A stretch of 64,000 bases of DNA from an uncultured Eubacteriales bacterium (lineage in GTDB: Bacteria > Bacillota > Clostridia > Oscillospirales > Acutalibacteraceae), in NCBI GenBank assembly GCA_934486455.1, contig CAKSPR010000004.1:2283-66282 (forward strand), read 5' to 3'. Under the pieces are notes generated by a model, which searched no databases, was not told where the DNA came from, and worked only from the letters and a program-made list of their open reading frames with translations. Every line of letters starts with the position of its first letter. Positions within the stretch are counted from its first letter, which is position 1. Shown piece after piece: positions 5,592 to 60,462 of this stretch. The translations under genes and the position numbers were made by a program.

Positions 5592-7055
5592 CTACCCCGC
5601 GCCCACGACCAATTGAAGGATCGTTAAAGCGTCGCCTGAGGTGATAATTCCGTCGCCGTCGGCGTCGGCGCACTGTATGTCGATTTGGGAAACGGGGGTC
5701 AATCCCACAATGTACTGAAGAAGGACAAGGGCGTCGCTTGAGGAAATCTGACCGTTACCGTCCACATCTCCTACCGCGCGTCCGCTGTCGATATGATCGG
5801 CGTAGTCGAGGCATATATACCCCGCCTGTCCGTTATGATCTATCTTGCCCCAGTTGCCTACCGTCTCATAAACCGTGACCTCAGTCCCGTTTGAAAGACC
5901 GCCGATTACATCCGACTCGGTTGTCGGCTGCAGACGCACATTTATGCCGTTGCTCGAGCGCACCGAGTATTTCCCGAGCCTGTATCTCGATTCTCCGTTG
6001 ACCTGAACATCAAAGCTCGCCGAAAATCCCCACATGGAAACGGTTATGGTGCGCGTACCGGGAGAGGAGCTGTAGCCCGACAGCTCAAATCCCGAGGAAA
6101 AAAGCTCGCTTGTGCCGTCGGAATAGTTCATTCTTATTACAAGACCGCTTCCGTCGAAGCTTTCGCCCTGCTCATACACGGTTTTATCGGGAGGCGAGAT
6201 GATCTCCATGCTGAGGGTATAGACCCTGTCGGCTATTTTATTTGTATATTTGAGACATATCCATCCGTCGGCTCCGTTATAGGAAACTTTTCCCCATTCT
6301 CCCGAAATCTCGCTGACATCCACCTCCGCGCCGTTTGCTATCCATCCTATTCTGCCGTAATCGGTGGAGGGGCCGCTTCGCAGATTGACCCCGTCGGAGG
6401 ATTTTATGGAATACCGTCCGGCAGTATATCCGTTTTCACTGCTGTTTCCGCCGCCGCCCGCGCCGTGAGGGCCTTTATATACGATTACATTTGCGCCGAC
6501 CCCAGCCTCGTCGTAATAAAAGAGGTCGGTAATATCGTTTGAAGCGGGATCCATGACATAAACCTTGCCGTTTTCCACCTTTTCGACCGCCACATAGTGG
6601 CCGTAATATTTAACCGAGCATACCACCATACAGCCGCTGTCGAGAAAGGCTTTTATCTGAGAGATTTTCTCGTCCTTTGTTCCCGAAACATTCGTCCATT
6701 TTTCCAGCGTAAAATTTGAGACATATTCGCAGGGCTTGCCCCAGTATATATCTCCCGATGAGGTGAACCCCCCGTGGGATTTAAGGTAGTTGCAAAGCAC
6801 CCCGGGATTGAAAACCGAGGTATCCCTCGACACCGCTCCCGAGTATGCCATAACCTTGGCCACCGAGGTCAGGGCACATCCCACCCTTGCCACGGTGTAG
6901 CTGTCGTTATATCCAAAGCCGATAGAACCCCAGCGGGAATCGGTCTGAAGCCAGGTTTTATAGTTATCATCACTTGCAAGGGCGGCGGTTGAAAGGCCGA
7001 CAGTCATAATAACAAGCGCCGTTAAAAAGGCTATGATTCTTTTTTTCAACTCCAT
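5592..7055 (-). CDS. Secreted multidomain protein: signal peptide, a peptidase C39-like (papain-fold) cysteine peptidase domain, two bacterial SH3 domains, an Ig-like domain and a C-terminal type-I dockerin
   Basis: The signal peptide is MELKKRIIAFLTALVIMTVGLSTAALA, with RBS AAGGAGGG before the ATG at 7055. The C39-like motif is WLQTDSRWGS...VARVGCALTSVAKVMAY. SH3b-like segments include GRYSIKSSDGVNLRSGPS...WGKV. The dockerin duplicated Ca-binding repeat is DVDGNGQISSSDALVLLQYIVG...DADGDGIITSGDALTILQLVVG. Confidence 0.75.
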   Translation of the reverse strand: MELKKRIIAFLTALVIMTVGLSTAALASDDNYKTWLQTDSRWGSIGFGYNDSYTVARVGCALTSVAKVMAYSGAVSRDTSVFNPGVLCNYLKSHGGFTSSGDIYWGKPCEYVSNFTLEKWTNVSGTKDEKISQIKAFLDSGCMVVCSVKYYGHYVAVEKVENGKVYVMDPASNDITDLFYYDEAGVGANVIVYKGPHGAGGGGNSSENGYTAGRYSIKSSDGVNLRSGPSTDYGRIGWIANGAEVDVSEISGEWGKVSYNGADGWICLKYTNKIADRVYTLSMEIISPPDKTVYEQGESFDGSGLVIRMNYSDGTSELFSSGFELSGYSSSPGTRTITVSMWGFSASFDVQVNGESRYRLGKYSVRSSNGINVRLQPTTESDVIGGLSNGTEVTVYETVGNWGKIDHNGQAGYICLDYADHIDSGRAVGDVDGNGQISSSDALVLLQYIVGLTPVSQIDIQCADADGDGIITSGDALTILQLVVGAG

Positions 7056-7449: not shown

Positions 7450-9435
7450 ATGGCATTAAATCACAAAACAACAAAAGAGGATATGGAAACCCGTATGGGC
7501 ATTCTTCCTTACCGCACACGTAAGGACATTCCCATTTCCTTTGTCTACGACGGCAAAAAATACGAGGGCTTTTCCGACGACATGAACCCGAGAAAGTGTT
7601 TCCGCCGTCTCGACAGCAACCTGACCCTCACCACCGTCACCGCAAATCTCGACTGCCTTGAAATCCGCGTTGAATACATAGAATACAAGGATTTCCCCGT
7701 AACCGAGTGGGTGGCATTCTTCGAGAACACCTCAAAGGAAAAATCAAAAATTCTTTCCGACTTCCGCATCGGCGCAGGCGTTGTCAAAACCGACGACGAT
7801 GTTGCCCTGACCTACTCCAACGGTGACGACGGAAGCAACATGGGCTATGAATATTTTGAAAATGACCTTAAAGCCCCCTTTGTCCTTCATCCCAACGACA
7901 CCGGTTGCTCCTGCGCCGGCGCATCTCCCTTTATGAGACTGCACGGCAGCACCGGCGGCATAAATATCGCCGTAGGCTGGACCGGCACATGGATAGCCGA
8001 ATTTGAAAAGGTTGAAGGCGGCGTAAAGGTGGCCTTCGGCCAGAAGCGCTGCCACATGGTGCTTAATCCCGGCGAGGTTATGAGAACTCCCCGCGTCAAC
8101 TTCGAAGGCTATGTGGGAGACGAAGCCCATGGAAGAAATATGTGGCGCCGCTTCTTTATGAAGCACATCTGCGTTAAGGATCCCGACGGCCACACCCTTC
8201 CCCCCAAGCTTTGCATGCATGTTTTCAACGCCGACGGCTTCCCCGAGTTCACCGGAGCCACCGAAGAAAACCAGCTCAGAGGTATCCGCTCTTACATTAA
8301 GGAGGGCGTCAAGCCCGATATTTGGTGGATCGACGCAGGCTGGTATGTCTGCGGAGACCACGACTGGCCGCTTATCGGCACATGGGAGGTCAACAAGGCT
8401 AACTTCCCGAGCGGCCTTGCTCCCATCGGCGAGGAATGCAAAAAGAACGACATTCAGCTGCTGCTTTGGTTTGAGCCCGAGCGCGTTGTAGCAGGCACAT
8501 GGCTCGAGCAGAACCATCCCGAGTGGCTGCTTCACCGCGCCGATCCCAACGACCCCAACATTCTCTTCAACTATGCCAATCCCGAGGCTCTCGAATGGAT
8601 GACCGAGCGCATCAACAAGATAATCAAGGAGTCGGGCGTTAACATCTACCGCCAGGATTTCAACTACGATCCCCGTCCCTCCTGGGAATTCCACGAGACC
8701 GAGGACAGAATCGGCGCAATCGAAAACCTTCACATTCAGGGATATTACAAGCTTTGGGATGAGATCATTCTCCGCAATCCCGGTCTGTGGATAGATTCCT
8801 GTGCCTCGGGCGGCCGCAGAAACGACCCCGAGACCCTTCGCCGCGCCGTTCCGCTCCACTATACCGATGTTGAATACGGTGTACATCCCGTTAAGCAGAA
8901 GCAGCACCGCTATATGTTCGAGTGGATTCCCTATTTCCGCGCCCACAACATGAGCTGGGACAATCCCGAGGGACTTTATTATCAGCCCAATGCAGGCCGT
9001 CCGGTGGACGAATTCGCATATCAGGCCGCCATGGCTCCCGCTCTTACCGACATGATCGAATGGAATGCCCCCGAGGAGTCCTTCGACCTTGCCCGCCATA
9101 TGCACCCAATTTGGCGCAGAGCGGCCGCAATCATGACCAAGGCCGACTACTATCCCCTCACCGTCTGCCGCAAGAATCCCGAGGATTATTATGCCATGGA
9201 ATTCTATAATCCCGACGAGTGCAGCGGGTTCTTCCAGGTGCTTCGCAACACCCAGGTAAAGGAGCCTTCCTTCACCGCCAAGCTCGTTCTCGACGAGACC
9301 AAGGACTACAAGGTTGAAAACACCAAGACCGGCGAAACCAAGGTCATTTCGGGCAAAGAGCTTGCAAACGGCATCGAGATCACCCTCGACAAGCGCTCGG
9401 CCGCCGTTGTTTTCTTCGAAGCAATCAAAGACTGA
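7450..9435 (+). CDS. GH36-like (clan GH-D, melibiase/alpha-galactosidase-type) glycoside hydrolase, paralog A. It has no signal peptide.
   Basis: WWIDAGWY, LLLWFEPERV and IYRQDFNYD parallel the GH36 DDGWF, LWFEPEMV and KWDMN motifs. DSCASGGRRNDPE parallels the GH36 CSGGGGR-D acid/base region. Confidence 0.65.
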   Translation: MALNHKTTKEDMETRMGILPYRTRKDIPISFVYDGKKYEGFSDDMNPRKCFRRLDSNLTLTTVTANLDCLEIRVEYIEYKDFPVTEWVAFFENTSKEKSKILSDFRIGAGVVKTDDDVALTYSNGDDGSNMGYEYFENDLKAPFVLHPNDTGCSCAGASPFMRLHGSTGGINIAVGWTGTWIAEFEKVEGGVKVAFGQKRCHMVLNPGEVMRTPRVNFEGYVGDEAHGRNMWRRFFMKHICVKDPDGHTLPPKLCMHVFNADGFPEFTGATEENQLRGIRSYIKEGVKPDIWWIDAGWYVCGDHDWPLIGTWEVNKANFPSGLAPIGEECKKNDIQLLLWFEPERVVAGTWLEQNHPEWLLHRADPNDPNILFNYANPEALEWMTERINKIIKESGVNIYRQDFNYDPRPSWEFHETEDRIGAIENLHIQGYYKLWDEIILRNPGLWIDSCASGGRRNDPETLRRAVPLHYTDVEYGVHPVKQKQHRYMFEWIPYFRAHNMSWDNPEGLYYQPNAGRPVDEFAYQAAMAPALTDMIEWNAPEESFDLARHMHPIWRRAAAIMTKADYYPLTVCRKNPEDYYAMEFYNPDECSGFFQVLRNTQVKEPSFTAKLVLDETKDYKVENTKTGETKVISGKELANGIEITLDKRSAAVVFFEAIKD

Positions 9436-19726: not shown

Positions 19727-19802
19727 TGGTGACCCATTGGCGATTCGAACGCCAGACACCTTGATTAAAAGTCAAGTGCTCTACCGGCTGAGCTAATGGG
19801 TC
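19727..19802 (-). tRNA. tRNA-Lys (anticodon UUU) with an encoded CCA
   Basis: Cloverleaf folded by hand: acceptor stem GACCCAT/ATGGGTC, D-arm GCTC...GAGC, anticodon stem CTTGA/TCAAG with loop CTTTTAA, and T-arm TGGCG-TTCGAAT-CGCCA. Confidence 0.9.
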
Positions 19803-20980: not shown

Positions 20981-22141
20981 ATGAAAAAAAGCTTAAAGGT
21001 TCTTGCACTTGTGCTTTCGGCCGCTCTTATAGCTGCTTGCTTCGCCGGTTGCGGCGACAGTAAAGACGCCAAGTCCGACACCATCAAAATCGGCGGCATC
21101 GGACCTATCACCGGCGGTGCTGCGGTTTACGGACAGGCTGTTAAAAACGCTGCCGAGATGGCTGTTGAGGAAATCAATGCCGCAGGCGGTATTAACGGAA
21201 CTTCTCTTGAGTTTAATTTCCAGGACGACGAGCATGACCCCGAAAAATCGGTCAATGCCTACAACAACCTCAAGGACTGGGGTATGCAGGCTCTTATGGG
21301 CACCGTTACCACCGCTCCCTGCCTTGCCGTTGTAGAAAAAACCTATCAGGACAATATGTTCCAGCTCACTCCTTCTGCTTCTGCTACCGGCGTTATCAAA
21401 TACGACAACACCTTCCAAATGTGCTTTACCGATCCTAACCAGGGCACCAAATCCGCCGACTACATCGCAGAGAACAAGCTTGCCACCAAGGTTGCGGTAA
21501 TCTACAACAGCTCGGACGCTTATTCTTCGGGCATTTACAGCAACTTTGCCAAGGAAGCCAAGGAAAAGGGCATTGAGGTCGTTTCGGCTGAAGCCTTCAC
21601 CGACGACTCCAAGACCGACTTCTCGGTACAGCTCAACAAATCCAAGGCATCGGGTGCAGAGCTTGTATTCCTTCCCATCTATGCACAGGAAGCCTCCCAA
21701 ATTCTTGAGCAGGCCAACTCCATGGGATACCAGACCACCTTCTTCGGCTGCGACGGTCTTGACGGAATTCTCACCATCGACGGCTTCAACAAGTCTCTTG
21801 CCGAGGGCGTAATTCTTCTGACCCCCTTTGTTGCCGGCGACACCAAGAGCCAGGCCAACGTTGACTTCACCAACAAGTATAAGGAAAAATATAAAGATAC
21901 CCCCAACCAGTTTGCCGCCGACGCTTATGATGCCATCTACGTCATAGCCGAGTGCATGAAGAACGGCAATGTTACCGCCGACATGAGCGCTTCCGACATC
22001 TGCGACATCATGAAGACCCAAATGACCAAGGTTAAATACGACGGTCTTACCGGCGACGGCATCACCTTTGCCGCTGACGGATCGGTCAACAAGTCTCCTA
22101 ACGCCATGAAGATTCAGGACGGCAAATATGTTGCTATGTAA
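20981..22141 (+). CDS. livK: Branched-chain amino acid ABC transporter substrate-binding lipoprotein (LivJ/LivK family)
   Basis: Lipoprotein signal with lipobox AACFAGC. The family motif IKIGGIGPITGGAAVYG is present. Confidence 0.8.
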   Translation: MKKSLKVLALVLSAALIAACFAGCGDSKDAKSDTIKIGGIGPITGGAAVYGQAVKNAAEMAVEEINAAGGINGTSLEFNFQDDEHDPEKSVNAYNNLKDWGMQALMGTVTTAPCLAVVEKTYQDNMFQLTPSASATGVIKYDNTFQMCFTDPNQGTKSADYIAENKLATKVAVIYNSSDAYSSGIYSNFAKEAKEKGIEVVSAEAFTDDSKTDFSVQLNKSKASGAELVFLPIYAQEASQILEQANSMGYQTTFFGCDGLDGILTIDGFNKSLAEGVILLTPFVAGDTKSQANVDFTNKYKEKYKDTPNQFAADAYDAIYVIAECMKNGNVTADMSASDICDIMKTQMTKVKYDGLTGDGITFAADGSVNKSPNAMKIQDGKYVAM

Positions 22142-33347: not shown

Positions 33348-34703
33348 TCAGTCGACAATAAATTTGAATTTTGCCTTCAGCTGTTCGTATGTCACCGAAT
33401 ATTCGCCGCTGTAGTCGGTAAATTTAACCGCGAAGGTCCTGTTGTCCGAAACGGCAAGGGCGATATACCCCACCGTCGAAACCTCCTCGGAATTTTCCGA
33501 TTCCGGGGCGTTTTGACCGTTTTCTCCCGAAAATTTATCCGAATCGAATATGGCTATGCGGAAAATTTCGCTTCCGGCCGTTTTGCTTTGACTGTTCCAC
33601 CTGCAAAAAACCGCCGTTCCCTTTTCGGAGTCGAAAATTACCGTAACTCCGTCCTTCCAGGACTCGTCGAGGATAAGATAATATCCTTCGCTCGTACAAT
33701 ACCAGGCCGACATAACGCTTTTAAACTCTTTTCCGTCATAATACGACCAATCGGTATAAAATCCCGCCCCGCCGACAAGGTTATATCCCGCAATGGGCTT
33801 TGCAAGGGGGATGTCGATCTTTCCGTCGCCGTTTACGTCCTTACACCTTCTGCCGCTTCGTCTGGCGGTGAAGGTGTTTTGGGCATATTCCCCCTCCGCG
33901 AAGGGATTGAAAAGAGCGCCGTTTTCGTAGTATATAAGCTCGGTTATCATAACATCGGAGGATTTAAGCCCGTCGAGATATACGGCCGTTTTTCCTCCCG
34001 TTTCCGAGGCGATAATGTTGACATATTCGGTGACTCCGCCGTCCAGCATAATGCTCGACTCGGTTTTAAAGGTGTTGTTTTCAAAATCGTTAAAGGTGAG
34101 ACTGGCTTTTTTGCTTTGAGAGTCGATGACCGCAATTCCCACATCGTCCCGTCCGTTGTTGTCTATGTCGCAAATGACAAAGGCATTGTAGGTTTCGTCG
34201 GCGCGCTGTACAAGTCCGCCGCCCTCCATTTTATAAATGATCAGCTGATTTGTTTTTGCGGTGGAGATTTGCCAGCCGGTAATTATCTCATAGGCTCCGT
34301 CCAGGTCGAGATCGGAAATTTCGGCCTCGATAAGCTCTCTGCCCACGGGATTGAGATCCTGCACCGATTTCCAGTTTCCGTTTTCCCATGAAAGGAGATT
34401 CATTCTTGTGACCGCGCTTTCGCCCTTTTTCTGATAAAAGGCCAGCACCTCGTCCTTTCCGTTTCCGTCGAAATCTCCCGAGCAAAAGGCCGAATGGTTA
34501 GCACCGACCTTGGGATATTTAAGCACAATATCGTTTCCGACTGCCTGCTCGAGCGCCTTTTGAACGCCGGCATAATATCCGGTGGCTCCCGGCGCCTTTA
34601 TGGTATCCTCCGGCGAAAAGCCCTTCATACTGCACCCCGAAAGAAGCACAAGGGCAACCGCTGCCGCGCAGAGCTTCAGTACCTTTTCAATTGTCTGTCT
34701 CAT
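33348..34703 (-). CDS. Lipoprotein with FG-GAP/VCBS-like Ca-binding repeats, predicted to form a beta-propeller
   Basis: Signal peptide plus lipobox LLSGCS. Repeated D-x-D/N-x-D-G motifs include DFDGNGKDEV, DLDLDGAYEI, DIDNNGRDDV and DVNGDGKIDI. Confidence 0.6.
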   Translation of the reverse strand: MRQTIEKVLKLCAAAVALVLLSGCSMKGFSPEDTIKAPGATGYYAGVQKALEQAVGNDIVLKYPKVGANHSAFCSGDFDGNGKDEVLAFYQKKGESAVTRMNLLSWENGNWKSVQDLNPVGRELIEAEISDLDLDGAYEIITGWQISTAKTNQLIIYKMEGGGLVQRADETYNAFVICDIDNNGRDDVGIAVIDSQSKKASLTFNDFENNTFKTESSIMLDGGVTEYVNIIASETGGKTAVYLDGLKSSDVMITELIYYENGALFNPFAEGEYAQNTFTARRSGRRCKDVNGDGKIDIPLAKPIAGYNLVGGAGFYTDWSYYDGKEFKSVMSAWYCTSEGYYLILDESWKDGVTVIFDSEKGTAVFCRWNSQSKTAGSEIFRIAIFDSDKFSGENGQNAPESENSEEVSTVGYIALAVSDNRTFAVKFTDYSGEYSVTYEQLKAKFKFIVD

Positions 34704-51334: not shown

Positions 51335-51382
51335 TTGTTAAGCTGTCACCCGGTAATTTTTGATTTAATTTGACAAAAAAAA

Positions 51383-51414
51383 GAGGACTCGCAGTGAGTC
51401 CTCTTTTGATTTTT
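51383..51414. terminator. Bidirectional intrinsic terminator shared by the Nif3-like gene and tal
   Basis: agaggactc-gcagt-gagtcctct with an A8 run upstream and a T-run downstream. Confidence 0.75.
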
Positions 51415-51423
51415 GTGCTTTGA

Positions 51424-52071
51424 TTATTTAGGAACCTTTTCCCAGTCCTTGAGGAAGCCTTCAACGGCTCTGGCGGAGTTGGGGTTGGTAGCCATCTGCA
51501 TAACAACCTTGAAGGGCATGGTGGCAATGTCGGTGCCCATTCTGGCAAGCTCGGCAACGTGACCGGGATGACGGACCGATGCGGCAACGATCTTGGTGTC
51601 GATGCCCTGAGCGTCGAAGATCTCGCGAATCTCGGCAACGAGGTTAAGTCCGTTTTCGCCGATGTCGTCCATACGGCCGACGAAGGGAGCAACATAGGAA
51701 GCGCCTGCGTTGGCGGCAAGAATAGCCTGGCAGGAGGAGAAAACAACCGTGTTGCAGACGGTGATACCCTCGGAAGAAAGGGTCTTAACGGCCTTGAGTC
51801 CTTCGGGGATCATGGGGATCTTGACAACGATGTTCTTGCTCTTTGCGGCAAGCTTTCTGCCTTCTTCGATCATTCCCTCGGCGTCAACGCTGAGAACCTC
51901 GGCAAAAACGGGGCCGTCGGTAATGATTGCGGTGATGTCGGTGAGAAGATCGTCAAACTTTCTGTTTTCTCTTGATATGATCGAGGGGTTGGTGGTTACA
52001 CCGGTGATGGCGCCCATATCATAAGCGGTTTTGATCTGCTCGATATTTGCGCTGTCGAGAAAGATTTTCAT
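51424..52071 (-). CDS. tal: Transaldolase / fructose-6-phosphate aldolase family protein (~215 aa)
   Basis: MKIFLDSANIEQIK...TTNPS motif. RBS GGAGG precedes the ATG at 52071. Confidence 0.85.
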   Translation of the reverse strand: MKIFLDSANIEQIKTAYDMGAITGVTTNPSIISRENRKFDDLLTDITAIITDGPVFAEVLSVDAEGMIEEGRKLAAKSKNIVVKIPMIPEGLKAVKTLSSEGITVCNTVVFSSCQAILAANAGASYVAPFVGRMDDIGENGLNLVAEIREIFDAQGIDTKIVAASVRHPGHVAELARMGTDIATMPFKVVMQMATNPNSARAVEGFLKDWEKVPK

Positions 52072-52154
52072 TTTAATTTCCTCCAATATTACAATTGACC
52101 TTTTCCCGCTTTAAGGGCCGGCCTTTTTTTCGGGAAAGGCTTAATTTAAACAAA

Positions 52155-53423
52155 TCAGTCGATGGACTTGGCATTTTCGAGAAGATATTTCTCGGCGTCA
52201 TAGCACCACAGTCCGTTGTTTTCGGCCACGATCTCGGCAAGCTTTTTGAACATGGGATCGGTTTCTCCCAGCTTTTCGAAATCGGCAATGGCGGTGAGAG
52301 GCATGGAAATGTGGGTGTAGATGAGCTTTTTGCCGCCCTTGATGTTGGGAAGGTTAAGGGTGGTTTCCACAACGCTGTCAAGGCCACCCACATGTGTGAT
52401 CATGGACGCGGGGTTGACCTTGCCGCTTCCCATCATGGAAATGACCTCTACCACATCGTCGATATTGCTGCCCGAATCGCCGGCAATGTGCGTGGTATCG
52501 TAATGGACATTATAGAAATTAAATTCGGCCGAAAACTCGGTCTTGGTGGGGCCTGCGAAGAAATTGAGGCATCCGTCGTGACCGAGGATTGCGCCGCCCT
52601 GCTCCACAACCGGTTTAACGGGAGCGAAAACAAAAACATCATCAAAGCCCTTGCCGCCGGTAAGGCCGCGGAGCACGCCCACGGGATCGTCGCAGGCGGT
52701 GTTTACATAGTGAAGCTCAACGCCGAATTTCTTGGCATCCTCGGGAGTGTATATGGATGCGGCGCGGGCAAGTCTTGCGTCGTCCACATCGGTGACAACC
52801 AGAAGGGAGGGATGAACATCGCGGTGAATGGCATAGTCGATTGCACCCAGTCCCATGGGACCCGCACCGGCGAGAATGGCCATTTTACCGTTTTGGACGA
52901 TGTCCATTTTATGAGCATAGTGGTGGCCGGGAACGTTGTGCCAGGAGGTGTGAAGTCCGCCGGCAATACATGCCATAGGCTCGGAAAGGGAGCCGTAGAA
53001 GAAGGCGTCTCCGGTGTAGTTCAGAAGGCATCCAAGCTCCATAACCTTGTTGGGAACGATAACATAGGTGGCGTCGCCGCCGATGTATCTGAAGGAATAG
53101 CCGGGAGCGGCATAAATGTCCTCGGGGTCGTTAAGAGCCGGCTGAATGGAAACGCGCTGACCCTCTTTAAAGTCGTTTGCCCATTTGCTTCCCACCTTGA
53201 CGATTTCGCCGCAGAACTCGTGTCCTACAATGGTGGGGTTTTCGGCCACGTCGTTGGGCACGCGCTTATGCTTTGCACCCTGGATGGCGGCCTTGTAGGT
53301 GGACATGCAAATGCTGTCGGATACCACCTTGAGCAGTATCTCGTCCTCCTGCATCTCGGGAAGCTCGAACTCCTCAAGGCGCAAATCGTTTTCACCGTAA
53401 ATTCTTACTGCTTTTGTTTTCAT
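52155..53423 (-). CDS. Zinc-dependent alcohol dehydrogenase family protein (sorbitol/polyol dehydrogenase-like). At 422 aa it is unusually long.
   Basis: GHEFCGEI zinc-ligand motif and GAGPMGLGA Rossmann motif. Confidence 0.75.
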   Translation of the reverse strand: MKTKAVRIYGENDLRLEEFELPEMQEDEILLKVVSDSICMSTYKAAIQGAKHKRVPNDVAENPTIVGHEFCGEIVKVGSKWANDFKEGQRVSIQPALNDPEDIYAAPGYSFRYIGGDATYVIVPNKVMELGCLLNYTGDAFFYGSLSEPMACIAGGLHTSWHNVPGHHYAHKMDIVQNGKMAILAGAGPMGLGAIDYAIHRDVHPSLLVVTDVDDARLARAASIYTPEDAKKFGVELHYVNTACDDPVGVLRGLTGGKGFDDVFVFAPVKPVVEQGGAILGHDGCLNFFAGPTKTEFSAEFNFYNVHYDTTHIAGDSGSNIDDVVEVISMMGSGKVNPASMITHVGGLDSVVETTLNLPNIKGGKKLIYTHISMPLTAIADFEKLGETDPMFKKLAEIVAENNGLWCYDAEKYLLENAKSID

Positions 53424-53572
53424 TTTGAAGACCTCTTTAAAAATTAATTTTTAAATTTGGTATGACGGACGGTTGGCGGGAATCCGTTTTGAGAAACCTG
53501 CGGCGGCAGACTTAACCGCACCGCCCTTTAAGTTTAAAACGGGTTGCCGCTCCGCAATTTGACTTAACGGAA

Positions 53573-54169
53573 TTATCCGATGGTTATAACGGGATCGTTG
53601 AATGTGGGATGAAGCTCGTTGGAGTTTTCATCGCAGCAGCTGGGGCAGGAGATGTTGAGCTTGGTCTCGCCCGATGCGCCTGCCTTGGGTTTAAAGGTGA
53701 GCTTTCCAAGCTCGACGGCATCGCTTATGGATTTGGCGGTGCTGCTCATCATGGCGATACGGATAGTGCCCTTTTCAGGCTCGTTATCGGCCGAAAGGAA
53801 GGAGTCCTCGTTGGCGGCAAAATCTATATATTCAAGCTTGTCGGTGTCGTAAGAAACGGTCAGATCAATGGCGGCAATGGTTGAGCCGGCCGAAACCTCG
53901 AGAGGTATCGTGATTTCCTCGCCTGCCTTGGCGGTCTTGGCCCCCGAGCCGACGGTAAATTCGGGAGCGACAAAGGTTGCCGATTCTCCGCCGTCGGTGC
54001 TGCTTTTACCGTTCTGTGTGGCCGACTTTAAAGCGTCTGCCGCCGAAGCGGAGGTTGTTGTCGAAGCTCCGCCGTCAGACTGAACGTCGGTGCCTTTGTC
54101 ACCCTTCTTTTTACAGGCCGAAAATGCCGTAAGCATAAGAACCGCAAGAATAAGTGCTGTTATTTTTCT
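53573..54169 (-). CDS. Small lipoprotein with a cohesin domain
   Basis: Signal peptide plus lipobox AFSAC. The cohesin-like core is AGEEITIPLEVSAGSTIAAIDLTVSYDTDKLEY...GTIRIAMMS...AVELGKLTFKPKAGASGETKL. RBS AAGGAG precedes the ATG at 54169. Confidence 0.6.
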   Translation of the reverse strand, partial: RKITALILAVLMLTAFSACKKKGDKGTDVQSDGGASTTTSASAADALKSATQNGKSSTDGGESATFVAPEFTVGSGAKTAKAGEEITIPLEVSAGSTIAAIDLTVSYDTDKLEYIDFAANEDSFLSADNEPEKGTIRIAMMSSTAKSISDAVELGKLTFKPKAGASGETKLNISCPSCCDENSNELHPTFNDPVITIG

Positions 54170-54219
54170 CATTACATTCACTCCTTTTGTCCAAAAAAGA
54201 TTATACACCATTTTTACTC

Positions 54220-55197
54220 CTAAAGCAATTGCTTTTTAGATTTTTTTATTTTGATTTTTTCGTCGGGTATCTGAGCCAGCAAAATGGCCGCAAACATAAG
54301 CACACAGCCGATAATTTCCCTTGCTCCCATGGCGTCTCCCAAAATGATCCACCCCGAAAGCACGGCGAAAACCGATTCCATGCACATTATAAGCGAAGCA
54401 ACCGTCGGGTCGGTGTATTTTTGGCCGACTATCTGCAGGGTATAGGCAACGCCGCTGCTCATAACGCCCGAATAAAGTATCGGCAAGGCGGCCGAAAGTA
54501 TACCTCTTAAGGAGGGCTGTTCGAATATGAACATACACCCTGCCGACAAAAGCCCGCCCACAAAAAACTGAATACATGACAGCCACACCCCGTTTACCAT
54601 GGGTGAAAAATGATCTATCACGAGAATGTGGCCGGTAAAGGCCATGGCACAAAGGAGGGTTATAACATCACCTATACATATGGCGTTCCCTTCTCCGGTT
54701 TTGACGCAGAGCAGGTAAAGCCCCGTCACCGCAAGCACAATGCCTATCCAAACGGTTTTTTGGGGTTTTCTTTTAAGAAAGATGCTGACAATGGGCACCA
54801 TAACCACATAAAGGGCGGTTATAAACCCAGATTTGCCGGCGGTTGTGCCGTTTTCGATTCCGAACTGCTGCAGATTTGCCGCCACAAAAATGACAGCGCC
54901 GCACACAAGTCCTCCGATAACCACCGTTTTGTTGGGCTTGCGGTGTCCCACGGGGCCGTCGGCCGCATTTTTGGGCGTGCGCGAGGATATAAGCGCCACC
55001 GGCAGTATACAAGCCGAGCCGATGAGCATCCTCACTCCGTTAAACGTGAACGGCTGGACCAGTCCCACGCTTTCGCTCTGGGCCACAAAGGAGGTGCCCC
55101 AAATAAAGGCGGCAAGGGCAAGAAGGATGTTGCCCAGCATTTTTTTTGCAGATGCGGTAGATATAACAATTCCTCCCGTATGTTTTTTTAATCTCAA
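54220..55197 (-). CDS. DMT-superfamily (EamA-like) transporter
   Basis: Ten predicted transmembrane helices with two EamA-like repeats. The start at 55197 overlaps the PHP stop as ATGA; an alternative ATG lies at 55140. Confidence 0.7.
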   Translation of the reverse strand: MRLKKHTGGIVISTASAKKMLGNILLALAAFIWGTSFVAQSESVGLVQPFTFNGVRMLIGSACILPVALISSRTPKNAADGPVGHRKPNKTVVIGGLVCGAVIFVAANLQQFGIENGTTAGKSGFITALYVVMVPIVSIFLKRKPQKTVWIGIVLAVTGLYLLCVKTGEGNAICIGDVITLLCAMAFTGHILVIDHFSPMVNGVWLSCIQFFVGGLLSAGCMFIFEQPSLRGILSAALPILYSGVMSSGVAYTLQIVGQKYTDPTVASLIMCMESVFAVLSGWIILGDAMGAREIIGCVLMFAAILLAQIPDEKIKIKKSKKQLL

Positions 55198-55922
55198 AAA
55201 TTCTGCGGATAGCTCTTTTCGCTTCCGTCAAAAAGGGTATAGGGTCGACGGTTTAAGAGGGTGTCCATATAATCGAAAACCGTTTCAAAGGGCTTTTCGA
55301 CCCCGATGCCGCCGCCCAGCATGTTTATATCGTGATTGTCGCTCCCCGCCGTTTGGGGAAGATTATATTTCTCGGCATATTTGACGGCGTCGATGTCAAA
55401 CTGCGGAACACTTTGAGGCTTGCGGCAGTGGGGATTGGAATGGGAGGCGTTGCGACTTTCGACCGCGTCGACAAGCCCGGGATAAAGCCTTACCTCATCC
55501 ACAATGCCCTTGACAATCCTGAAGGGATGGGCATGAACCACCATTCCGCCTGCGTTTTTGATTATTTTATACTGCTCCTCCACCGAGTCGGTCTTTATCT
55601 CGGGGTGGTTTATAAGCCACTGTTCATCGATACCGTAAACGAGAAATTCTGTGGCCTTAAAATTGGTCTCCAGTCCAAAAAACACCGAAAGGCCTATTTT
55701 GTCGCCCTCCTCCTTGGCTGCGCGGTATCCCGCACAGTATCCTCTTACCCACTGCTCCCAGGGCAGGCTTTGGTCGACACAGTTGTTGCCCCGCCAAAAG
55801 TGGTTTGTAACCATTATACCTGCATAGCCGCCGGCCTTATACGCCCTTGCCATCTCGGCACCGGAATTTACGGCACAGGCGCTGGCTTCGTTTGTATGAC
55901 AGTGGGTTTCATAAAGATACAT
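55194..55922 (-). CDS. PHP-domain metal-dependent phosphoesterase
   Basis: ETHCHT N-terminal His motif and later HAHP. RBS GGAGGG precedes the start. Confidence 0.7.
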   Translation of the reverse strand: MYLYETHCHTNEASACAVNSGAEMARAYKAGGYAGIMVTNHFWRGNNCVDQSLPWEQWVRGYCAGYRAAKEEGDKIGLSVFFGLETNFKATEFLVYGIDEQWLINHPEIKTDSVEEQYKIIKNAGGMVVHAHPFRIVKGIVDEVRLYPGLVDAVESRNASHSNPHCRKPQSVPQFDIDAVKYAEKYNLPQTAGSDNHDINMLGGGIGVEKPFETVFDYMDTLLNRRPYTLFDGSEKSYPQNF

Positions 55923-56027
55923 AGCTTTCCCTCCAAAGAAACTCTTTAAAAAACATACATATAATAAGACATTTTGCCCTTCAAGTCAATGGAAAAGGGC
56001 AAATTTCGGCGGTGGGGATAATTTTTC

Positions 56028-56165: not shown

Positions 56166-56480
56166 ATGTACGCAATCATTGAGACCGGCGGAAAGCAGTA
56201 CAAGGTATCTAACGGCGACGTTATTTACATCGAAAAGCTTAATGCCGAAGCAGAGGAAACCGTAAAATTCGACAAGGTTCTCGCCTTCTGTGACGACAAC
56301 GGAGTTCAGGTCGGCGCCCCCACCCTCGACATTTCCGTTGAAGGCAAGGTGGTTAAAAACGGCAAGGGCAAGAAGATCACCGTTTTCACCTACAAGCCCA
56401 AGAAAAACGAAAAGAGAAAAATGGGTCACCGTCAACCCTACACCAAGGTTGAAATCGTTTCCATCAACGGCGTTAAATAA
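56166..56480 (+). CDS. rplU: 50S ribosomal protein L21
   Basis: [14 protein letters not shown]. Confidence 0.95.
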
Positions 56481-56812
56481 TGACCACCGCAGTTTTTTCC
56501 AAGGAAAACGGGCTTTTTAAGGGATTTGCCCTTTTCGGACACGCAGGCCGCGGAGGCGAAGGCAACGACATTGTCTGTGCGGCGTTGTCCTCAGCCGCCT
56601 ATCTTGCGGCGAACGCCCTTTCCCTGGACAATAAAAACGCAAAAATAAATATAAGCGAAGGCAAAATGACCGTTTATATCGGAAATGACAGCGAGCTTTC
56701 CGAAAAGGTGCTTACCGCCCTTGAATTTCAGCTGACCGACATACAGCGCCAGTATCCGAAAAATTTTCGCCTTTGCAGTTTAACTTTAACAGGAGGAAAA
56801 AACAATGTTTAA
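56480..56812 (+). CDS. prp: Ribosomal-processing cysteine protease Prp
   Basis: DUF464-type sequence with the GHAG...C catalytic dyad context. It lies between rplU and rpmA. Confidence 0.85.
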
Positions 56813-59902: not shown

Positions 59903-59919
59903 AAACAATCTGAAATTTT

Positions 59920-59961
59920 GCTTCAACCTTTAGGTCATCTTTAGGTTGAAGCTTTATTTTT
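59920..59961 (+). terminator. Intrinsic terminator of the EamA-like gene
   Basis: gcttcaacc...ggttgaagc followed by tttattttt. Confidence 0.65.
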
Positions 59962-59964
59962 ATA

Positions 59965-60299
59965 ACAGAAAATGCAGCAAAGACCGAGCCCCGTAAGAAA
60001 AGCTTTGCAAGGCCGCTGTCTGTTTTGTCGGGCGTATTTCTTATTGCCTCGGTCTGTCCCATAACGGCCAAGGGCGGAGCATATGCTTTCTTCGGCTAAA
60101 GAGACAAGCTCTTTTAAACTCCGAGGACAACGCGGCAAGGGCGTCCGCTGCGGATTTTAACAGGACCGCTGCATCAGGCGGCGCCCCTGCTCATACTTCG
60201 GTATCCGGTATCAAAAATCACATCTTTTTGATGCAATTTTTCCTTCATTCGGCGACCCGACAGGACTTTTAAGGTTTTGTCGGGTCGTTTATTGATTTT
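59965..60299 (+). ncRNA. Candidate small structured RNA, or a long regulatory leader, bounded by two plus-oriented intrinsic terminators. The 3' hairpin lies at 60255..60299.
   Basis: No ORF with an RBS is present. Long-range helices are visible, for example aagaccgag/ctcggtct, ggac...gtcc and gcgg...ccgc. The terminal hairpin gacccgaca...tgtcgggtc is followed by a T-run. Confidence 0.3.
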
Positions 60300-60320
60300 A
60301 CAAAAAATATGTGGTAAAAT
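60292..60320 (+). promoter_or_regulatory. Promoter of the SPFH gene: TTGATT, 17-nt spacer, TGgTAAAAT (extended -10)
   Basis: The sequence is ttgattttacaaaaaatatgtggtaaaat. Confidence 0.5.
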
Positions 60321-60462
60321 GTATTTGCAGAAAATTTCCACCCTTGCCGTGCCCTTTGCCAAAGTCTTCCGTCCCATTGCCCAAGCTCCAAAGCAGTCCC
60401 CGCAAGGGGGTCGGCCGCACGGTAAAGGCAAGGCACAGCGCAAATAAAAAGGAGAGAAAAAA

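What the first reader, a model, noticed from the sequence alone, without database searches (positions are those of the whole stretch)
53573..55922. Lipobox-anchored cohesin module in an operon with a DMT transporter and a PHP phosphoesterase
The small protein at 53573-54169 has a signal peptide with a lipobox and a domain that matches the cohesin core pattern: G-x-x-V-x-V-P, then YD...LE, then GTIxIAMxS, then a F-K-x-K strand. Cohesins are normally carried on sortase- or SLH-anchored scaffoldins, so a lipoprotein cohesin co-transcribed with a membrane transporter and a PHP metallo-phosphoesterase is an unusual context. The ATGA overlaps suggest a single transcript. Together with the dockerin protein about 47 kb away at 5592-7055, this points to a non-canonical cohesin-dockerin pairing.
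Basis: partly seen in the sequence, partly recalled or inferred. Interest (0 to 1): 0.6.

Follow-up and report, generated by a model that had tools for sequence, protein, structure and literature searches.

The report
Lipid-anchored single cohesin surface protein
An uncultured human-gut Ruminococcaceae bacterium encodes a small protein that is very probably fixed to the cell membrane by a lipid tail and carries one cohesin module, so it most likely holds dockerin-tagged secreted proteins at the cell surface; this is a modest new variant of a known system, and its link to the neighbouring transporter and phosphoesterase genes is weak.

Summary
The minus-strand gene 53573-54172 (199 aa; the finding's start is 3 nt short) matches Pfam Cohesin at 61.8 bits (cut-off 24.1). 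It is predicted to fold as a compact type-I-like cohesin beta-sandwich. It begins with a lipoprotein signal (MRKITALILAVLMLTAFSA|C) whose Cys is invariant even in distant relatives.

There are no ATGA overlaps. A conserved promoter-like motif (TTGCTT-17-TATAAT) lies directly upstream of the cohesin gene. The neighbours that stay with the cohesin across all four lineages sampled are the downstream polyol-type dehydrogenase and fructose-6-phosphate aldolase, not the PHP and DMT genes.

The cohesin is the fastest-evolving gene at its locus: 43-68% identity where neighbours are 87-100%. The only dockerin protein in the window (5592-7055; C39-like peptidase, SH3b, Big_3, dockerin) shows the same pattern, and its dockerin is its most diverged module. 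This fits a co-evolving cohesin-dockerin pair, but binding was not tested.

Single-cohesin surface anchors with SLH, sortase or transmembrane attachment are already described. I found no description of a lipobox anchor. Verdict: real, a new variant of a known kind, moderate interest.

The parts
53573..54172 (-). Cohesin lipoprotein CDS (199 aa plus stop)
   Evidence: ORF and sequence. Pfam Cohesin 61.8 bits. Homologues all start at the equivalent MKK/MRK.
54113..54172 (-). Lipoprotein signal peptide with lipobox (AFSA|C) and the lipid-acceptor Cys20
   Evidence: Pattern matches. Cys20 is one of only 4 invariant columns across 12 diverse lipobox cohesins. Predicted helix at residues 3-22.
53963..54112 (-). 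Ser/Thr/Gly/Ala/Lys-rich disordered tether of about 50 residues (residues 21-70)
   Evidence: Composition. pLDDT below 50 for residues 23-65. 30-54% identity to same-genus relatives.
53576..53962 (-). Cohesin module (residues 71-199), compact and type-I-like
   Evidence: All-beta model with pLDDT about 90. Foldseek best matches are type I cohesins: 4ums at E 1.1e-11 and 6kgc with target-normalised TM-score 0.78.
54200..54228 (-). Conserved promoter-like motif: TTGCTT (54228-54223, overlapping the last two EamA codons), a 17-nt spacer, then TATAAT (54205-54200). The GGAG ribosome-binding site is at 54184-54181.
   Evidence: Read. Conserved in L001, L005, L007, L008, L009, L010, L023, L024 and in L017, which lacks EamA. 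The consensus scan did not report it, because the -35 matches only 3 of 6 positions.
54220..55197 (-). EamA/DMT transporter (TTG start at 55197, or ATG at 55140)
   Evidence: Pfam EamA at E 2.6e-35, two stretches. Below cut-off for every NCBIfam equivalog.
55194..55922 (-). PHP-like metallo-hydrolase, 242 aa, no signal peptide
   Evidence: PHP_C 24.9 bits against 21.3; PHP 15.8 bits, below its cut-off. CehA/McbA domain 25.1 bits against 80. No PDB sequence relative.
55961..55989 (-). Promoter-like site upstream of the PHP gene (TTGACT-17-TATTAT)
   Evidence: 10 of 12 positions match.
52155..53423 (-). Zn-dependent polyol (sorbitol)-type dehydrogenase, 422 aa, directly downstream of the cohesin gene in every member of this subfamily
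   Evidence: best PDB hits are sorbitol dehydrogenase and ketose reductase. Synteny.
51424..52086 (-). Fructose-6-phosphate aldolase (FSA/TalC)
   Evidence: TIGR00875 at 287 bits against a cut-off of 246.
51379..51407 (-). Strong terminator-like hairpin that closes the co-directional cluster
   Evidence: 12-13 bp stem followed by a T-run, on both strands.
5592..7055 (-). Candidate partner: a secreted protein with a C39-like peptidase domain, SH3b, Big_3, SH3b and a dockerin (dockerin module at about 5595-5789)
   Evidence: Pfam. It is the only dockerin found in the window by two pattern scans. Orthologues all keep a two-repeat dockerin.

Best explanation
The gene encodes a membrane-tethered docking site.

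Inferred from sequence: the precursor is exported. Cys20 is lipid-modified and the signal peptide is removed by signal peptidase II. The mature protein therefore hangs from the outer face of the cytoplasmic membrane on a disordered tether of about 50 residues, ending in one compact type-I-like cohesin module.

Inferred by analogy with all characterised cohesins, and not tested here: the cohesin binds the calcium-dependent dockerin of one or a few secreted proteins of the same bacterium and keeps them at the cell envelope. The best candidate in this window is the protein at 5592-7055, which combines a C39-like peptidase domain, SH3b, Big_3 and a dockerin. Its SH3b domains suggest that it acts on or at the cell wall.

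The cohesin gene appears to have its own promoter. It may be co-transcribed with the downstream dehydrogenase and aldolase genes. The upstream PHP and DMT genes are neighbours rather than demonstrated functional partners.
For: - Cohesin identity: Pfam hit well above the cut-off; cohesin fold with type I cohesins as best matches, including the single-cohesin anchors OlpA and OlpC; the closest PDB sequence is the non-cellulosomal NagJ cohesin.
- Lipid anchor: the lipobox fits in 47 of 50 homologue sequences tested. Cys20 is invariant across 12 diverse small cohesins while the rest of the N-terminus varies. All nine short (<350 aa) relatives among the 148 retrieved top hits have a lipobox-type N-terminus by pattern or by inspection. 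Two other lipobox proteins occur in the window.
- No other anchor, no second module and no dockerin in the protein.
- A dockerin partner exists: the secreted protein has Dockerin_1 above cut-off, and the dockerin is retained in all orthologues down to 34% identity.
- Parallel fast evolution: the cohesin is 43-68% identical where flanking genes are 87-100%, with dN 0.20-0.51 against 0.00-0.08 for all flanking genes except prp (0.07-0.23). The dockerin protein is 65% identical where its flanks are 92-95%. Its dockerin module is 43-52% identical where the catalytic domain is 83-94%.
- Relatives carry other dockerin genes close to the cohesin: L001/L025, L007 and L015.
- Own promoter.
Against:
- The genome-wide numbers of cohesins and dockerins in this organism are unknown, so the partner cannot be assigned.
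- The dockerin of the Cthe_2159-type protein next to the cohesin in a sister species resembles the window's dockerin at the predicted recognition positions more than the sister-type C39 orthologues do. The pairing may therefore be more complex than one cohesin to one dockerin.
- Fast evolution is common to surface proteins and is not specific evidence of co-evolution.
- dN/dS is 0.2-0.3, not above 1.
- Lipidation is predicted, not shown.
Confidence: 0.6

Rival explanations
1. One reading: PHP, DMT transporter and cohesin form one functional operon. In this reading the lipoprotein cohesin serves the transporter, for example by holding a dockerin-tagged enzyme next to it or by capturing its substrate.
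For: - The genes are co-directional with short gaps, and no terminator-like site lies between EamA and the cohesin gene.
- The PHP-EamA-cohesin order is kept throughout the genus.
- In the distant locus L022, EamA overlaps a two-cohesin lipoprotein gene by 7 nt, in otherwise different surroundings.
Against: - There are no ATGA overlaps.
- A conserved promoter-like motif lies between EamA and the cohesin gene.
- EamA is missing in L017 and PHP is missing in L022.
- Other lipobox cohesins lie next to HIT, VanY or DUF308 genes.
- The whole region, including the rplU-prp-rpmA-obg genes, is syntenic in the genus, so conserved order there says little about function.
- To my knowledge, DMT transporters are not known to use extracellular lipoprotein partners.
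Confidence: 0.1
2. The protein has a cohesin fold but does not bind dockerins. It would be a fast-evolving surface lipoprotein with another role, for example an adhesin, a glycan binder, or a target of phages or host immunity.
For: - Divergence is exceptional relative to neighbours, and dS is also raised (about 1.0 against 0.08-0.6), which suggests old alleles or exchange at this locus.
- There is a subfamily-specific Cys motif (C176-x-x-C179-C180, with invariant H188) that was not seen in the cohesin modules of the multi-cohesin relative P0050.
- Only one dockerin protein lies within 64 kb.
Against: - The Pfam Cohesin match covers the whole model at full length, and the fold is compact and type-I-like.
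- Dockerin proteins occur in this genus and sometimes next to the gene.
- Every cohesin tested so far binds a dockerin or a dockerin-like module (established knowledge, not tested here).
Confidence: 0.2
3. The N-terminus is an ordinary secretion signal or an uncleaved membrane helix rather than a lipoprotein signal.
For: A 2026 preprint describes membrane-attached single cohesins in Ruminococcus species as anchored by a transmembrane helix. No lipidation data exist for this protein.
Against: - The Cys at +1 is invariant, whereas Phe at -3 does not fit the small-residue rule for signal peptidase I.
- The signal has the classic layout: a K/R n-region, a 13-residue hydrophobic core, then the lipobox.
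Confidence: 0.07

Closest known systems
OlpA and OlpC of Acetivibrio (Clostridium) thermocellum: single type I cohesin surface anchors
   Same: One type-I-like cohesin on a cell-surface anchoring protein that can hold individual dockerin-bearing proteins directly at the cell. Structures 3ul4 and 4dh2 are among the best fold matches.
   Different: OlpA and OlpC attach through C-terminal SLH domains to the wall or S-layer. This protein attaches through an N-terminal lipobox to the membrane. Sequence identity is only about 17%. The organism shows no cellulosome context.
ScaE (Ruminococcus flavefaciens) and Sca2/Sca5 (R. bromii): sortase-anchored cohesin proteins
   Same: They come from the same bacterial family, are cohesin-bearing cell-surface anchors, and bind dockerins on non-glycosidase proteins as well, including peptidases.
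   Different: They are linked covalently to peptidoglycan through LPXTG, and ScaE has a type III cohesin with insertions. This protein has no LPXTG motif and a compact cohesin. A canonical sortase-type single cohesin next to a dockerin gene and a sortase gene is seen in L011.
Membrane-attached single cohesins reported in Ruminococcus sp. HUN007, JE7B6, zg921/zg924 and R. difficilis (bioRxiv 10.64898/2026.02.05.704116)
   Same: Single cohesin proteins predicted to be attached directly to the lipid bilayer in gut or rumen ruminococci.
   Different: They are described as anchored by a transmembrane helix, and the word lipoprotein does not occur in that text. I could not test whether they are homologous to this family.
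Non-cellulosomal cohesins of Clostridium perfringens (NagJ/GH84C, NanJ) and Archaeoglobus fulgidus
   Same: NagJ is the closest solved relative by sequence (2jh2, E 1.5e-4). These are cohesins used outside plant cell-wall degradation.
   Different: In C. perfringens the cohesins are internal modules of large secreted enzymes, not small lipoproteins.

Membership tests
Cohesin domain (Pfam PF00963) | Profile match above the curated cut-off over most of the model | tested here: met
   61.8 bits against 24.1, model positions 6-139 of 139.
Cohesin domain (Pfam PF00963) | Nine-stranded beta-sandwich (jelly-roll) fold | tested here: met
   The AlphaFold2 model is all-beta over residues 73-198 with pLDDT about 90. 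The first 49 Foldseek PDB matches are all cohesins, with target-normalised TM-scores up to 0.79.
Cohesin domain (Pfam PF00963) | Calcium-dependent binding of a cognate dockerin | not testable with these tools
Type I cohesin (as opposed to types II and III) | Compact module without the helix and beta-flap insertions of types II and III | tested here: met
   The module is 129 residues with no helix in the DSSP string. Type I structures rank first; type II and III matches align with longer targets and lower scores.
Bacterial lipoprotein (signal peptidase II substrate) | Positively charged n-region, hydrophobic core, lipobox ending in Cys within the first 35 residues or so | tested here: met
   M-RK-ITALILAVLMLTAFSA-C fits PROSITE PS51257; the same N-terminus with its Met (P0003, P0004) also fits the G+LPP pattern.
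Bacterial lipoprotein (signal peptidase II substrate) | Conservation of the +1 Cys among homologues | tested here: met
   Invariant in alignments A1, A2, A3 and A4, and one of only four invariant columns in the diverse alignment A3.
Bacterial lipoprotein (signal peptidase II substrate) | Actual lipidation, and presence of Lgt and LspA in the genome | not testable with these tools
   The genome beyond the 64-kb window is not available. No dedicated predictor (SignalP or LipoP) is offered.
Cellulosomal or amylosomal scaffoldin | Several cohesins and/or a CBM/X module, with an SLH or sortase anchor | tested here: not met
   There is one cohesin and no other Pfam domain, and the C-terminus ...VITIG has no LPXTG or SLH.
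Cellulosomal or amylosomal scaffoldin | A set of dockerin-bearing glycoside hydrolases in the same genome | tested here: inconclusive
   The window holds only one dockerin protein, and it is a peptidase-like protein. A sister species has a Cthe_2159-dockerin protein. A whole-genome census was not possible.
   No ATGA overlaps. A conserved promoter-like motif precedes the cohesin gene. EamA or PHP is absent in L017 and L022 respectively.

The most novel reading that the evidence does not exclude
A minimal, species-specific cohesin-dockerin pair is used for cell-envelope work rather than for polysaccharide breakdown. A lipid-anchored cohesin beneath or within the wall would capture a conserved peptidase that carries a C39-like domain, SH3b and a dockerin (and a few other dockerin proteins). 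The two interacting modules would co-diversify rapidly between sister species of an abundant, uncultured human-gut genus.
Probability: 0.3. Interest if true: 0.6.

Novelty: new variant of a known kind. Interest (0 to 1): 0.4.

Why it matters
Cohesin-dockerin systems are usually discussed as wall-anchored machines for fibre or starch degradation. A lipid-anchored, single-cohesin protein in common but uncultured human-gut Ruminococcaceae adds a fourth way of attaching cohesins to the cell, beside SLH domains, sortase and transmembrane helices.

It also points to a use of the system for tethering a peptidase-like wall-binding protein. The strong and parallel divergence of the cohesin and the candidate dockerin between sister species would make this a compact natural model of how binding specificity evolves.

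The family is small: about 50 clusters at 90% identity, and a handful of related small lipobox cohesins. It is unnamed in the databases searched, so experimental characterisation would be new. The conceptual advance would still be incremental.

Tried and rejected
- A search with the 69-aa dockerin module alone found only one weak hit and gave no census of dockerins.
- The AlphaFold-database fold library was unavailable, so no organism names or annotated structural relatives were obtained.
- The broad alignment of lipobox cohesins (A3) was too divergent for a metagenome scan. The narrower scan (A4) returned mostly same-genus loci plus unrelated multi-cohesin scaffoldins, and added no new distant contexts.
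- The cluster look-up gave no names or accessions.
- I could not match cohesin variants to dockerin variants species by species, because the two genes lie about 47 kb apart and only 10 kb of flank can be fetched.
- Literature searches for lipobox or lipoprotein cohesins found no description. The hits mentioned lipoproteins in other contexts.
- Rfam found no RNA element near the cluster.
- Rejected: that the upstream in-frame ATG at 54211 is the start. It lies within the promoter-like motif, just upstream of the -10 hexamer, and homologues begin at the MKK/MRK position.
- Rejected: positive selection as a demonstrated fact. dN/dS is 0.2-0.3.
Full report
**What is at the coordinates.** On the minus strand, 55922-51424 holds five co-directional ORFs:
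- a PHP-like hydrolase (55922-55194, 242 aa);
- an EamA/DMT transporter (55197 or 55140 to 54220);
- a small cohesin protein (54172-53573);
- a 422-aa zinc-dependent dehydrogenase of the polyol/sorbitol type (53423-52155);
- a fructose-6-phosphate aldolase (52086-51424).

A promoter-like site precedes the PHP gene (55989-55961), and a strong hairpin terminator follows the aldolase gene (51379-51407). The ribosomal rplU-prp-rpmA-obg genes run the other way from 56166.

**The cohesin.** The small protein matches Pfam Cohesin at E 1e-16, 61.8 bits against a curated cut-off of 24.1, over essentially the whole model. An AlphaFold2 model built from 11 homologues has three parts:
- an N-terminal helix (residues 3-22);
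- a disordered stretch (residues 23-65, pLDDT below 50);
- an all-beta domain (residues 73-198, pLDDT about 90).

Against the PDB, the first 49 matches are cohesins. Type I modules rank first: Pseudobacteroides cellulosolvens ScaB Coh7 at E 1.1e-11, C. acetobutylicum CohA2 with TM-score 0.78, and the single-cohesin anchors OlpA and OlpC of A. thermocellum. By sequence, the nearest solved relative is the non-cellulosomal cohesin of C. perfringens NagJ. The module is compact, with none of the helix or flap insertions of type II and III cohesins.

**The lipoprotein signal.** The true start is the ATG at 54172. A GGAG lies 8 nt upstream, and all homologues begin at the same MKK/MRK. The finding's coordinate 54169 is the second codon.
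- MRKITALILAVLMLTAFSA|CKKK fits the PROSITE lipobox pattern; the identical N-terminus of P0003 and P0004 also fits the Gram-positive G+LPP pattern. 47 of the 50 homologue sequences tested fit PROSITE; the three failures are single-residue variants or truncated sequences.
- In an alignment of 12 diverse small cohesins (25-81% identity), the Cys is one of only four invariant columns.
- Phe at -3 does not fit a signal peptidase I site.
- The window also encodes two other lipobox proteins.

Lipid anchoring is therefore very likely, but it remains a prediction.

**Family and distribution.** The word-indexed search found only 49 clusters, all single-cohesin proteins of 140-212 aa. The exhaustive profile search found 1,756 cohesin proteins. 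Among the 148 retrieved top hits, every short one (<350 aa) has a lipobox-type N-terminus, by pattern or by inspection. These include separate 50%-identity clusters P0058, P0064, P0073 (two cohesins), P0128, P0134 and P0144. The genome scan places the close relatives in uncultured Ruminococcaceae or Eubacteriales MAGs from the human gut. One variant (P0016) occurs on 273 contigs. No source gives the protein a name.

**Is it an operon with PHP and DMT?** The ATGA overlaps do not exist.
- The PHP stop and a possible TTG start of EamA share TTGA. The first in-frame ATG is 57 nt further on.
- EamA and the cohesin gene are 47 nt apart.
- That gap, together with the last two EamA codons, holds TTGCTT, 17 nt, TATAAT, about 30 nt upstream of the ATG.
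- The motif is identical in every relative examined although neighbouring genes have dS above 1. It is also present in L017, which has no EamA gene.

The cohesin gene therefore most likely has its own promoter. Read-through from upstream cannot be excluded, because no terminator-like site intervenes.

Downstream, the gap to the dehydrogenase gene is only about 35-40 nt in L001 and L005, and 149 nt in the window, where it is structured (z -2.4). Co-transcription of cohesin, dehydrogenase and aldolase is therefore plausible.

Gene order in relatives:
- In the genus, the order PHP-EamA-cohesin-dehydrogenase-aldolase is constant, but so is everything else around it.
- L017: PHP-cohesin-dehydrogenase-aldolase, without EamA.
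- L022: EamA-(two-cohesin lipoprotein)-dehydrogenase-aldolase, without PHP, in different surroundings.
- L014: cohesin-dehydrogenase.
- More distant lipobox cohesins lie next to HIT, VanY or DUF308 genes.

The stable neighbours are the two downstream metabolic genes, not PHP and DMT. I treat this as shared transcription or slow decay of gene order, not as evidence of a joint function.

**Evolutionary rate.**
- Against L007, the flanking proteins are 92-100% identical (apart from prp at 83%) and the cohesin is 68%.
- Against L001, the flanks are 86-99% (apart from prp at 70%) and the cohesin is 43-47%.
- dN is 0.20-0.51 against 0.00-0.08 for flanking genes other than prp. dN/dS is 0.22-0.31 against about 0.01-0.2 (0.27-0.31 for prp).
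- The cohesin's dS (about 1.0 against L007) also exceeds that of its neighbours.
- The cohesin module itself, not only the tether, is diverged: 70% against L007 and 51% against L001.

**The candidate partner.** The protein at 5592-7055 has a signal peptide, a C39-like peptidase domain, two SH3b domains, a Big_3 domain and a Dockerin_1 domain at 41.2 bits against 22.9. It is the only dockerin detected in the window by two pattern scans, and the lipoprotein is the only cohesin.
- Its orthologues (98, 91, 83, 71, 66 and 65% identity) and a wider family down to 34% identity all keep a two-repeat dockerin.
- Module by module, the dockerin is the most diverged part: 43-52% where the catalytic domain is 83-94%.
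- In the syntenic locus L036, the flanking PFOR and melibiase genes are 95% and 92% identical, but this protein is only 65%.

The pattern mirrors the cohesin's and fits a co-evolving pair. However, surface proteins often evolve fast, and I could not pair the variants by species.

Relatives also carry other dockerin genes close to the cohesin:
- a Cthe_2159-dockerin protein in L001-L004 and L025;
- a remnant of it with one dockerin repeat in L007;
- a 469-aa dockerin protein two genes upstream in L015.

The corresponding slot in the window (59903-60460) is empty.

**Comparison with what is known.**
- Single-cohesin surface anchors are established. I know OlpA and OlpC to be SLH-anchored (their cohesin-dockerin structures appear). 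ScaE of R. flavefaciens and Sca2/Sca5 of R. bromii use sortase.
- A 2026 preprint reports single cohesins attached to the bilayer by transmembrane helices in several Ruminococcus species, and never uses the word lipoprotein.
- Dockerins on peptidases are known in R. bromii.
- Four literature searches found no description of a lipobox-anchored cohesin.

I therefore file the protein as a true cohesin and a predicted lipoprotein, not as a scaffoldin. It is a new variant of a known kind.

**Verdict.** The operon reading is weak. The cohesin-dockerin pairing is plausible, has circumstantial support, and is untested. Interest is moderate (0.4).

Noticed in passing
window 53573-54172 against L007, L001 and other relatives: The cohesin gene has raised dS as well as dN relative to its neighbours (dS about 1.0 against 0.08-0.6 versus L007). 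This hints at old allelic lineages or recombinational replacement at this one gene.
   Followed up: partly
window 53636-53647 and 53609-53611 (residues C176, C179, C180 and H188): A subfamily-specific Cys motif S-C-x-S-C-C-D followed by an invariant E-L-H-P-T-F. C179 is nearly invariant across diverse lipobox cohesins, and some distant members instead have a second Cys about 13 residues downstream. It could be a disulfide or a metal site, and was not seen in the cohesin modules of the multi-cohesin relative P0050.
   Followed up: no
window 59903-60460; L001:1-289; L025:947-2298; L007:146-535: The slot beyond the second EamA gene holds a Cthe_2159-dockerin gene in one sister species and a remnant of it (N-terminus plus a single dockerin repeat) in another. 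It holds nothing in the window, although a non-coding block just upstream of the SPFH gene is conserved.
   Followed up: partly
window 5592-7055 and orthologues P0211-P0216: The orthologues are mosaics. P0213 shares a 100% identical signal peptide and a 94% identical catalytic domain with the window protein but only a 52% identical dockerin. P0211 (98% overall) has a 68% identical signal peptide. This suggests module-wise recombination.
   Followed up: partly
window 56480-56812: The ribosomal-processing protease gene prp is much more diverged between species (46-85% identity) than the flanking rplU and rpmA genes (83-100%).
   Followed up: no
window 53424-53572: The 149-nt spacer between the cohesin and dehydrogenase genes folds more stably than shuffled sequence (z -2.4). 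It is partly conserved in L007 but reduced to about 35-40 nt in L001 and L005. It has no Rfam match and no clear terminator.
   Followed up: partly
window 20981-22141 (+) and 33348-34703 (-): Two further predicted lipoproteins, with lipoboxes FAGC and LSGC.
   Followed up: no
window 19730-19802 (-): A tRNA gene, the only Rfam match in the window at gathering score.
   Followed up: no
L036:5751-9758 against window 7450-9435: The GH36 melibiase gene next to the dockerin protein is duplicated in tandem in a sister species (92% and 62% identical copies) and single in the window.
   Followed up: no
L011:2923-11333: A textbook minimal system for comparison: a 1654-aa dockerin protein, then a single cohesin with an LPKTG sortase signal, then a further secreted protein and a sortase-like gene, in an uncultured Clostridia MAG from rabbit gut.
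   Followed up: no
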